A model generated the notes under the pieces. It had not been told where the DNA came from. It was given only the letters and a program-made list of their open reading frames with translations, and made no database searches. From an uncultured archaeon (GTDB lineage Archaea; Asgardarchaeota; Lokiarchaeia; Sigyniarchaeales; Promethearchaeaceae): a stretch of DNA of 20,349 nucleotides. The DNA is taken from assembly GCA_964426185.1 (NCBI GenBank), contig CAYRPF010000026.1, positions 16,312 to 36,660 of the forward strand, read 5' to 3'. Positions 19,132-19,470 of this stretch are shown here, piece by piece (position 1 is the stretch's first letter; every line of letters starts with the position of its first letter). Both the position numbers and the translations under genes were made by a program.

Positions 19132-19470
19132 ATGGCAAAAAAAAAAGCAGCAAATAAAAAGCGAAGTTCAACGGGCAAAGCCAAAAAATCTACACAGGGA
19201 TTAAAAATAACCAAAGGAGTAAGAAAGAGAAAAATTTCTAAAACAACCAACACATCAACTGCGAAAAAAAATTTCATCTCAAAGGCACCCATTCGGCGTC
19301 TAATGCGCGAAGAAGGAGCGTCACTAATCAGCGATGATGCATTGGCACTTTTAATCAATACTTTGGAAAAACATGCAGTAGAAACCACTAAAAAAGCCTT
19401 AGAAATTGTAAAAGATGATAAGCGCAAGCGGATTACCTCCAAAGATATCAATTGGGCCACCCGTGCCTAA
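19132..19470 (+). CDS. Archaeal histone (HMf-type fold) with a 47-aa basic N-terminal tail
   Basis: ATG at 19132 is preceded by GGAGGA. FISKAPIRRLMREEGASLISDDALALLINTLEKHAVETTKKALEIVKDDKRKRITSKDINWATRA aligns without gaps to HMfB as I recall it. Confidence 0.93.
   Translation: MAKKKAANKKRSSTGKAKKSTQGLKITKGVRKRKISKTTNTSTAKKNFISKAPIRRLMREEGASLISDDALALLINTLEKHAVETTKKALEIVKDDKRKRITSKDINWATRA

What the first reader, a model, noticed from the sequence alone, without database searches (positions are those of the whole stretch)
19132..19272. Unusually long histone tail with an H3-like STG(G)KA segment
Seen: MAKKKAANKKRSSTGKAKKSTQGLKITKGVRKRKISKTTNTSTAKKN has 15 K, 3 R, 12 S/T and no acidic residue. 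RSSTGKAKK resembles H3 residues 8-18 (RKSTGGKAPRK, containing the S10/T11/K14 sites). Its length is comparable to the H3 tail. Inference: a modifiable, chromatin-compacting tail. The similarity may be low-complexity convergence.
Basis: partly seen in the sequence, partly recalled or inferred. Interest (0 to 1): 0.75.

Follow-up and report, generated by a model that had tools for sequence, protein, structure and literature searches.

The report
Long-tailed Lokiarchaeal histone, not H3-like
This gene encodes an Asgard (Loki-type) archaeal histone with a real, unusually long, lysine-rich floppy tail, but it belongs to an already described family of tailed histones, and its apparent match to the eukaryotic H3 tail is no better than chance.

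Summary
Window 19132-19470 (+) encodes a 112-aa protein. Residues 1-47 form a tail with 15 K, 3 R, 12 S/T and no D/E. Residues 48-112 form a canonical histone fold.

The tail must be translated. No ATG, GTG or TTG lies between codon 2 and M58, which sits inside helix 1. A GGAGG lies 8 nt upstream of the ATG. More than 100 relatives start with MAKKK.

The H3 reading fails:
- The tail aligns to the H3 tail no better than its own shuffles (35% of shuffles score as high).
- STG/STGKA occurs in none of 119 other family tails.
- In the ortholog alignment the motif falls in an indel.
- The tail alone matches no PDB chain at E<=10.
- The fold is archaeal, and H4 is the only eukaryotic core histone it approaches.

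The protein belongs to the tailed HLoB-type histone family of Lokiarchaeia (bioRxiv 10.64898/2026.07.02.735847). That preprint shows high abundance, nucleoid localisation and tail-lysine modification. The window protein sits in a well-supported, Hef-adjacent subclade with long tails (18-52 aa). Its Ca. Harpocratesius repetitus ortholog has a 48-aa tail, and one family member has about 76 aa.

Most likely function: a disordered polycationic DNA-binding or compaction arm that can be modified on lysine. This is inferred, not shown.

The scan has noted tailed Asgard histones before, on other DNA. Verdict: a new member of a known kind, of low-to-moderate interest.

The parts
19132..19470 (+). Tailed histone gene (112 codons plus TAA)
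   Evidence: ORF. PF00808 at 1.1e-11 and PF00125 at 30.4 bits. 319 homologs, mostly Lokiarchaeia/Promethearchaeota.
19132..19272 (+). N-terminal tail, residues 1-47: 32% Lys, net charge +18, predicted disordered
   Evidence: Composition. AF2 gives pLDDT below 50 and no secondary structure. No Pfam or PDB match on its own.
19273..19467 (+). Junction (F48-P53) and histone fold, residues 48-112 (helices 51-60, 68-94, 103-111)
   Evidence: AF2 model. Ungapped alignment to HPhA, HMfA and HMfB. 29 columns invariant across 11 orthologs.
19119..19123 (+). Shine-Dalgarno-like GGAGG, 8 nt upstream of ATG 19132
   Evidence: Read directly. GGAG(G) lies at a similar distance in the closest orthologs.
19471..19479 (+). 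T9 run directly after the stop codon; likely archaeal oligo-T terminator, suggesting a monocistronic histone transcript
   Evidence: hairpin plus T-run. The terminator function is inferred.
19639..20058 (+). Neighbouring GNAT acetyltransferase (139 aa); possible but unproven tail writer
   Evidence: PF00583 at 1.7e-20. Directly follows the histone in all seven related loci that carry both genes side by side (L010-L014, L021, L055) and in a 52% GC lineage. Not adjacent in 28 loci of the sister family.
16394..18910 (-). Divergently transcribed Hef (DEAD helicase + ERCC4 + HhH); syntenic marker of this histone ortholog
   Evidence: Hef is divergent from the histone in L010, L011, L055 and L057.

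Best explanation
The gene encodes a nucleosomal-type archaeal histone of the tailed HLoB family, from a Lokiarchaeon in the same genus as Ca. Harpocratesius repetitus. The C-terminal 65 residues form a normal histone fold, which should dimerise and wrap DNA like other archaeal histones.

The N-terminal 47 residues form an intrinsically disordered, strongly cationic arm (+18, no acidic residue). It emerges beside helix 1, next to the DNA. Its most likely roles are:
- adding non-specific electrostatic DNA binding, in cis or in trans, which gives compaction or bridging;
- offering many lysines for methylation or acetylation, as shown for its L. ossiferum relatives.

Selection acts on the tail's composition and charge, not its sequence. 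Between close orthologs, length and sequence change quickly through in-frame indels. The STGKA segment is a lineage-specific chance product of K/S/T/G/A-rich composition, not an H3-like motif.

Shown here: gene, start site, disorder prediction, family and subclade membership, and lack of motif conservation. Inferred: DNA compaction and modification of this particular tail.
For: Fold and family:
- PF00808 at 1.1e-11.
- The best PDB sequence matches are HPhA, HMfA and HMfB.
- 319 homologs, mostly Lokiarchaeia, nearly all starting MAKKK with K-rich tails.
- P0038 shares 57-59% identity in the fold. It is UYP45647.1 of L. ossiferum B-35. Its C-terminus equals the peptide used to raise the anti-HLoB.1 antibody.
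- On the tree, the tailed family separates from this genome's own untailed paralogs at SH-aLRT 99. The window protein lies in a 96-supported clade of 15 long-tailed members.

Tail is made:
- No internal start codon before M58.
- Conserved SD-like motif and conserved MAKK start.
- The frame stays open through 47 codons, where composition alone predicts about a 3-6% chance.

Disorder: AF2 model.

Composition is conserved, sequence is not:
- Ortholog tails carry 27-47% K and 0-1 acidic residues, at lengths of 22-52 aa (18 aa in a further subclade member, G105).
- The nearest relative (fold 94% identical) has a tail 17 residues shorter.
- Alignment gaps in the tail DNA of the closest orthologs are multiples of three.

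Function by homology: HLoB histones are abundant, nucleoid-localised and lysine-modified, and a Loki GNAT and sirtuins act on their tails in vitro.
Against: - No experiment or expression data exist for this organism.
- The fold departs from HMfB at positions that Henneman et al. 2018 use to judge hypernucleosome formation: H49->D, L62->W, T54->R and R19->L (seen in the alignments; criteria). Homo-oligomerisation beyond the dimer is therefore uncertain.
- In L. ossiferum, tail acetylation was barely detectable in vivo and no phosphorylation was found. 'Modifiable' may mean mainly methylation.
- Pairwise identity in the aligned tails (0.375) exceeds the residue-shuffled value (0.197). This is inflated by near-identical pairs and by the aligner, so it does not exclude some positional constraint near both ends of the tail.
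Confidence: 0.82

Rival explanations
1. The STGKA segment is a functional H3-like module, homologous or convergent. S13/T14/K16 would be read and written like H3 S10/T11/K14.
For: There are 6 identities to RKSTGGKAPRK with one gap. The tail length (47 aa) falls in the eukaryotic range of 32-64 aa quoted in the preprint. The nearest relative P0002 has TAGKK at a comparable distance from the N-terminus.
Against: - 11% of shuffles reach 6 identities, and 35% reach the Smith-Waterman score.
- The motif is unique among 120 family tails.
- It falls in an indel in the ortholog alignment.
- The tail alone matches no PDB chain, H3 included, at E<=10.
- H4, not H3, is the only eukaryotic core histone the fold approaches.
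- No reader domains and no histone phosphorylation were found in Asgard archaea.
Confidence: 0.03
2. The tail is the dedicated substrate of the GNAT encoded 168 nt downstream, making a writer-substrate gene pair.
For: - The histone->GNAT order is kept in H. repetitus, another Harpocratesius MAG, the P0002 contig, the MTAKK-type relatives and a 52% GC relative.
- The GNAT stays within 1.5-2.5 kb in two more lineages.
- A Loki GNAT (LoHAT2) acetylates HLoB tails in vitro.
Against: - All adjacent cases lie in one family-level neighbourhood, so shared descent explains them.
- In 28 loci of the sister family, the single-copy GNAT ortholog (44-56% identity) has no histone within 1.5 kb.
- One ortholog locus (P0009) lacks the GNAT.
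- A T9 run follows the histone stop codon, suggesting separate transcripts.
- This GNAT's acetyl-CoA motif (RRQGYG near residue 80) differs in sequence and position from LoHAT2's GKGLMS at 106-111.
- L. ossiferum alone has 63 candidate GNATs.
Confidence: 0.15
3. Translation starts at the upstream ATG 19117, as in the deposited 117-aa gene call. The mature N-terminus would then be MEDTYMAKKK..., carrying two acidic residues.
For: ATG 19117 is in frame and was chosen by a gene caller (P0001).
Against: The GGAGG overlaps this ATG and is spaced correctly for 19132. None of the orthologs has such an extension, and their conserved N-terminus is M(T)AKK. Proteomics of the L. ossiferum relatives numbers tail peptides from residue 2 of the MAKK-type start.
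Confidence: 0.06
4. The protein is not a chromatin histone but an NF-YB/HAP3-like transcription-factor subunit, as its H. repetitus ortholog is annotated.
For: The database name of P0003 is 'NFYB/HAP3 family transcription factor subunit'. PF00808 covers both kinds of protein.
Against: The best solved relatives are archaeal nucleosomal histones (1e-5 to 1e-8), while NF-YB reaches only E 0.21. The protein nests inside the HLoB family, which was shown to be abundant and nucleoid-bound. The name is an automatic family label.
Confidence: 0.04

Closest known systems
HLoB tailed histones of Ca. Lokiarchaeum ossiferum B35 (for example HLoB.1 = UYP45647.1; bioRxiv 10.64898/2026.07.02.735847)
   Same: - Same fold family, at 57-59% identity in the fold.
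- Same MAKKK start and the same disordered tail with more than 30% Lys.
- Same KDDKRKR(I/V)T loop-2 signature.
- Same genome-level pattern of 8-11 histone genes that mix tailed and untailed forms. This genome has 8, of which 3 are tailed.
   Different: - The tail is 47 aa, against the roughly 16-32 aa quoted for HLoB/HMpB.
- The tail is K/S/T-rich (about 26-30% S+T, 11-12% A+P), whereas the rest of the family is K/A/P-rich (12% S+T, 34% A+P).
- It belongs to a separate, 96-supported subclade. Most members carry F-I-S-K-A-P before helix 1 and Trp in helix 3 (invariant in the 11 aligned orthologs). Two members, P0010 and P0012, read F-I-A-K-A-P, and P0012 lacks the Trp.
- It sits next to Hef.
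Ca. Harpocratesius repetitus MCF2141589.1 (P0003), annotated 'NFYB/HAP3 family transcription factor subunit'
   Same: It is the syntenic ortholog, sharing the Hef | histone | GNAT | 170-aa CxxC protein order. The fold is 88% identical, the tail is 48 aa, and the K/T/S-rich composition is the same.
   Different: The tail sequence is essentially unalignable apart from MAKK and the last few residues before F48. It has no STGKA.
HMfB / HMfA / HPhA archaeal nucleosomal histones (PDB 1a7w, 1hta, 1ku5, 5t5k)
   Same: Ungapped alignment across the whole fold. R10, G16, R52, K53 and D59 (HMfB numbering) are retained.
   Different: Those proteins have no tail. The window protein carries H49->D, L62->W, T54->R and R19->L, so canonical hypernucleosome formation is uncertain under the criteria in PMC6136690.
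Eukaryotic histone H4
   Same: The tail is long, basic and disordered, with a length in the eukaryotic range. H4 is the only eukaryotic core histone that matches the fold, at sub-threshold E 0.04-1.6, with protein residues 49-110 aligned to H4 29-90. From my own recall of H4, helix 1 (ITKPAIRRL) and loop 2 / helix 3 (KRKTVTAMDV.YA) resemble ISKAPIRRL and KRKRITSKDINWA here.
   Different: There is no detectable sequence relationship between the tail and the H3, H4, H2A or H2B tails beyond composition. The protein has no alpha-N helix. No H3 chain matches the fold.

Membership tests
Archaeal nucleosomal histone (PF00808, HMf-type) | Three-helix histone fold of about 65 aa that matches the family profile above its cut-off | tested here: met
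   PF00808 scores 45.3 bits against a cut-off of 21.4. AF2 places helices at 51-60, 68-94 and 103-111.
Archaeal nucleosomal histone (PF00808, HMf-type) | R52-D59 intramolecular pair, plus R10 and G16 (HMfB numbering) | tested here: met
   R98, D105, R56 and G62 are present and invariant in 11 orthologs.
Archaeal nucleosomal histone (PF00808, HMf-type) | Canonical dimer-dimer interface (L46, H49, L62) and the T54 and R19 DNA contacts used to predict hypernucleosomes (PMC6136690) | tested here: not met
   The ungapped alignment gives I92, D95, W108, R100 and L65 (criteria). D95 is shared by HLoB.1. This is a family trait, not a defect of this gene.
HLoB-type tailed histones of Lokiarchaeia | Lys-rich (above 30%) disordered N-terminal extension on a nucleosomal-type fold | tested here: met
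   32% Lys across 47 residues. Predicted disordered.
HLoB-type tailed histones of Lokiarchaeia | Groups with named HLoB members rather than with untailed HLoA-type paralogs | tested here: met
   The tree of 129 folds separates the tailed family (which includes P0038 = HLoB.1-type) from this genome's own untailed paralogs at SH-aLRT 99. With only 64 columns, the internal branching order is weak.
HLoB-type tailed histones of Lokiarchaeia | High abundance, nucleoid localisation and tail-lysine modification | not testable with these tools
   These are shown only for L. ossiferum and the Hodarchaeon HC1.
Eukaryotic histone H3 | Conserved N-tail sequence (ARTKQTARKSTGGKAPRK...) recognisable above composition | tested here: not met
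   Smith-Waterman score 36, against 34.2 +/- 5.5 for shuffles. The motif identity is reached by 11% of shuffles. The tail alone has no PDB hit at E<=10.
Eukaryotic histone H3 | Fold more similar to H3 than to other histone classes | tested here: not met
   A fold-only PDB search lists archaeal histones, viral doublets and H4, but no cellular H3. The single H3 hit of the full-length query (8ua7, E 0.003) disappears when tail and fold are searched separately.

The most novel reading that the evidence does not exclude
The Hef-adjacent, 96-supported long-tail subclade may be a distinct histone variant of Lokiarchaeia rather than just another HLoB isoform. Its markers are F-I-S-K-A-P before helix 1 and Trp in helix 3. 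In Harpocratesius, its tail has grown to eukaryotic length (47-52 aa) and shifted from K/A/P-rich to K/S/T-rich. Such a tail could be regulated by Ser/Thr phosphorylation as well as by lysine acetylation from the syntenic GNAT. That would make it the most eukaryote-like (H4-like) tail-plus-writer module known in an archaeon.
Probability: 0.08. Interest if true: 0.6.

Novelty: new member of a known kind. Interest (0 to 1): 0.25.

Why it matters
Tailed Asgard histones matter for the origin of eukaryotic chromatin, but the class has already been described, and partly characterised experimentally, in cultured Lokiarchaeia and Hodarchaeales.

This case adds three modest points:
- Within one syntenic ortholog, tail length ranges from 18 to 52 residues between relatives. 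Charge and the absence of acidic residues are preserved, which argues that composition, not sequence, is under selection.
- A recognisable long-tail subclade exists beside Hef.
- Short look-alikes of eukaryotic tail motifs in these proteins should be treated as compositional chance unless orthologs conserve them.

It also corrects a probable 5-codon over-extension in the deposited gene call.

Tried and rejected
- **H3, H4, H2A and H2B tail similarity.** None scored above shuffles. The eukaryotic tail sequences were typed from my own knowledge, not supplied by a tool.
- **Pfam core-histone hit spanning residues 7-111.** It looked as if it supported a eukaryote-like tail. The fold alone scores 29.8 of the 30.4 bits, and the tail alone hits nothing.
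- **Full-length PDB hit to a 196-aa 'Histone H3' (8ua7).** It is not reproduced by the tail or the fold searched separately.
- **Tandem or internal repeats in the tail DNA as the source of the length.** None were found.
- **A 'histone-GNAT fusion' protein (P0123).** It looked like Rosetta-stone evidence for a functional link. It is a 1-nt frameshift read-through on a short metagenome contig.
- **Searching the L. ossiferum genome for a member of the long-tail subclade.** That record is not held.
- **Complex prediction for GNAT with tail, or for the homodimer.** Not run. An enzyme-substrate pair and a textbook histone dimer would not have changed my odds.
- **Pairwise tail identity above shuffles.** Not used as evidence of positional conservation, because near-identical sequence pairs and aligner optimisation inflate it.

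Full report
**What is there**

Window 19132-19470 (+) is a 112-codon ORF. AlphaFold2, run on an 11-ortholog alignment, gives three helices (51-60, 68-94, 103-111). For residues 1-45 it gives no secondary structure and pLDDT mostly below 50.

The gene is transcribed divergently from Hef (16394-18910, -). A GNAT acetyltransferase (19639-20058, +) follows it after a T9 run.

The genome is 3.26 Mb in 155 contigs. It carries 8 histone-fold genes. Three have MAKK-type lysine-rich tails and five are short FAWSP-type histones.

**Is the tail made?**

Three in-frame starts are possible: GTG 19102, ATG 19117 and ATG 19132.

- No ATG, GTG or TTG occurs between codon 2 and M58, which lies inside helix 1. 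An intact fold therefore requires the tail.
- GGAGG at 19119-19123 lies 8 nt before ATG 19132 and overlaps ATG 19117.
- The closest orthologs have GGAG(G) at a similar distance from their MAKK or MTAKK start.
- More than 100 of the 120 best homologs begin MAKKK.
- The deposited call (P0001, 117 aa, MEDTY...) is probably 5 codons too long.
- The frame stays open for 47 codons, where base composition alone gives a 3-6% chance.

**What family?**

The 319 homologs come mostly from Lokiarchaeia/Promethearchaeota.

P0003 is the ortholog in the complete Ca. Harpocratesius repetitus genome (MCF2141589.1), which is in the same genus as the window's genome. Its fold is 88% identical, its tail is 48 aa, and it shares the Hef | histone | GNAT order.

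P0038 is UYP45647.1 of Ca. Lokiarchaeum ossiferum B-35. Its C-terminus equals the peptide used to raise the anti-HLoB.1 antibody in bioRxiv 10.64898/2026.07.02.735847.

That preprint defines HLoB as the tailed, lysine-rich histone family of Lokiarchaeia. It reports:
- tails of roughly 16-32 aa with more than 30% Lys;
- high abundance and nucleoid localisation;
- tail-lysine methylation and rare acetylation, with no phosphorylation;
- a GNAT (LoHAT2) and sirtuins that act on the tails in vitro.

Earlier papers had already noted tailed Asgard histones (PMC6136690, PMC11390915).

A fold-only tree of 129 sequences separates the tailed family from this genome's untailed paralogs at SH-aLRT 99. It places the window protein in a 96-supported clade of 15 proteins whose tails measure 18-52 aa. 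The alignment has only 64 columns, so deeper branching is unreliable.

**Length**

Among the 120 best hits the median tail is 15 aa, and this one (47 aa) ranks third, behind its two Harpocratesius orthologs. An exhaustive search with the fold alone found other long tails: P0121 has about 45-48 aa at a syntenic Hef-adjacent locus, and P0126 has about 76 aa. The tail is long for the family and within the eukaryotic range, but it is not unique.

**H3-likeness**

- The Smith-Waterman score of the tail against H3 1-40 is 36. Shuffled tails give 34.2 +/- 5.5, and 35% of them score as high.
- H4, H2A and H2B tails also score no better than shuffles.
- The 6 identities to RKSTGGKAPRK are reached by 11% of shuffles.
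- STG, TGK and STGKA occur in no other family tail.
- In the ortholog alignment, residues 11-17 face gaps in eight sequences and N-P-N/K-T-K-P in two.
- The nearest relative (fold 94% identical) has a tail 17 residues shorter.
- Alignment gaps in the tail DNA are multiples of three, and no tandem repeat explains the length.
- The Pfam core-histone hit owes 29.8 of its 30.4 bits to the fold.
- The tail alone hits nothing in Pfam or in the PDB at E<=10.
- The fold's best solved relatives are HPhA, HMfA and HMfB. H4 is the only eukaryotic core histone listed, and only below threshold.

The H3 resemblance is therefore compositional.

**What is conserved**

Conservation lies in composition. Ortholog tails have 27-47% Lys and 0-1 acidic residues. 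In this subclade they are S/T-rich and A/P-poor (30% and 12%), against 12% and 34% in the rest of the family. The fold has 29 invariant columns in 11 orthologs, including the junction F48, S50-P53.

**Mechanism (inferred)**

The tail is most likely a disordered polycationic arm beside helix 1 that adds non-specific DNA contacts, in cis or in trans. It also offers lysines for modification, as in HLoB and as modelled for Heimdall HA.

Relative to HMfB the fold has H49->D, L62->W, T54->R and R19->L. D95 is shared by HLoB.1. Whether the protein forms homomeric hypernucleosomes is open.

**The neighbouring GNAT**

- The histone->GNAT order is kept in Harpocratesius, in MTAKK-type relatives and in a 52% GC relative. 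In the last case, an apparent fusion protein is a frameshift artefact.
- The GNAT lies 1.5-2.5 kb away in two other lineages.
- In 28 loci of the sister family, the single-copy GNAT ortholog has no histone within 1.5 kb.
- One ortholog locus lacks the GNAT.

Shared descent explains this pattern. I put a dedicated writer-substrate link at about 15%.

**Earlier scan notes**

Notes from this scan show that tailed Asgard histones, and lysine-rich tails on other Asgard proteins, have been seen repeatedly on other DNA. They agree with this reading and do not count as independent evidence.

**Verdict**

The general interpretation is plausible by homology. The H3-specific interpretation is rejected. 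This is a new member of a known kind, at the long end of its range.

Noticed in passing
window 19117-19131: The deposited gene call (P0001, 117 aa) starts at ATG 19117 (MEDTY...). The SD position and the orthologs indicate that the true start is ATG 19132.
   Followed up: yes
window 19639-20058: A GNAT acetyltransferase lies directly downstream of the tailed histone. The adjacency is conserved within the Harpocratesius-like family but not in the sister family, where the GNAT ortholog stands without a histone nearby.
   Followed up: partly
window 20095-20349: The CxxC protein gene after the GNAT matches the 170-aa H. repetitus ortholog in frame 0 (residues 1-63) and then in frame +1 (residues 73-92). 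This is either a frameshift or an assembly error next to the contig end.
   Followed up: partly
L056:415-1230: A 271-aa 'histone-GNAT fusion' (P0123) on a 52% GC metagenome contig is a 1-nt frameshift in helix 3. The other frame reads ...EDLTWATK followed by a stop.
   Followed up: yes
L060:133-1257: P0122 is a 374-aa protein with four consecutive histone-fold repeats and a C-terminal CxxC...CxxC motif. It sits on a 1.3-kb metagenome contig with no genomic context.
   Followed up: no
L059:4001-4438: P0126 (TFF98525.1, a Promethearchaeota MAG) is a tailed histone with a K/A/T/S/P-rich tail of about 76 aa, the longest seen here.
   Followed up: partly
P0139 (649 aa) and P0169 (181 aa): These proteins carry a histone fold of this type at the C-terminus of a much longer protein (residues 558-623 and 117-178). 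The N-terminal parts were not examined.
   Followed up: no
G000 loci L004 and L006: The same genome has two further MAKK-type tailed histones, with tails of about 21 and 28 aa. It also has five short FAWSP-type histones, four of them in two tandem pairs (C53, C34).
   Followed up: partly
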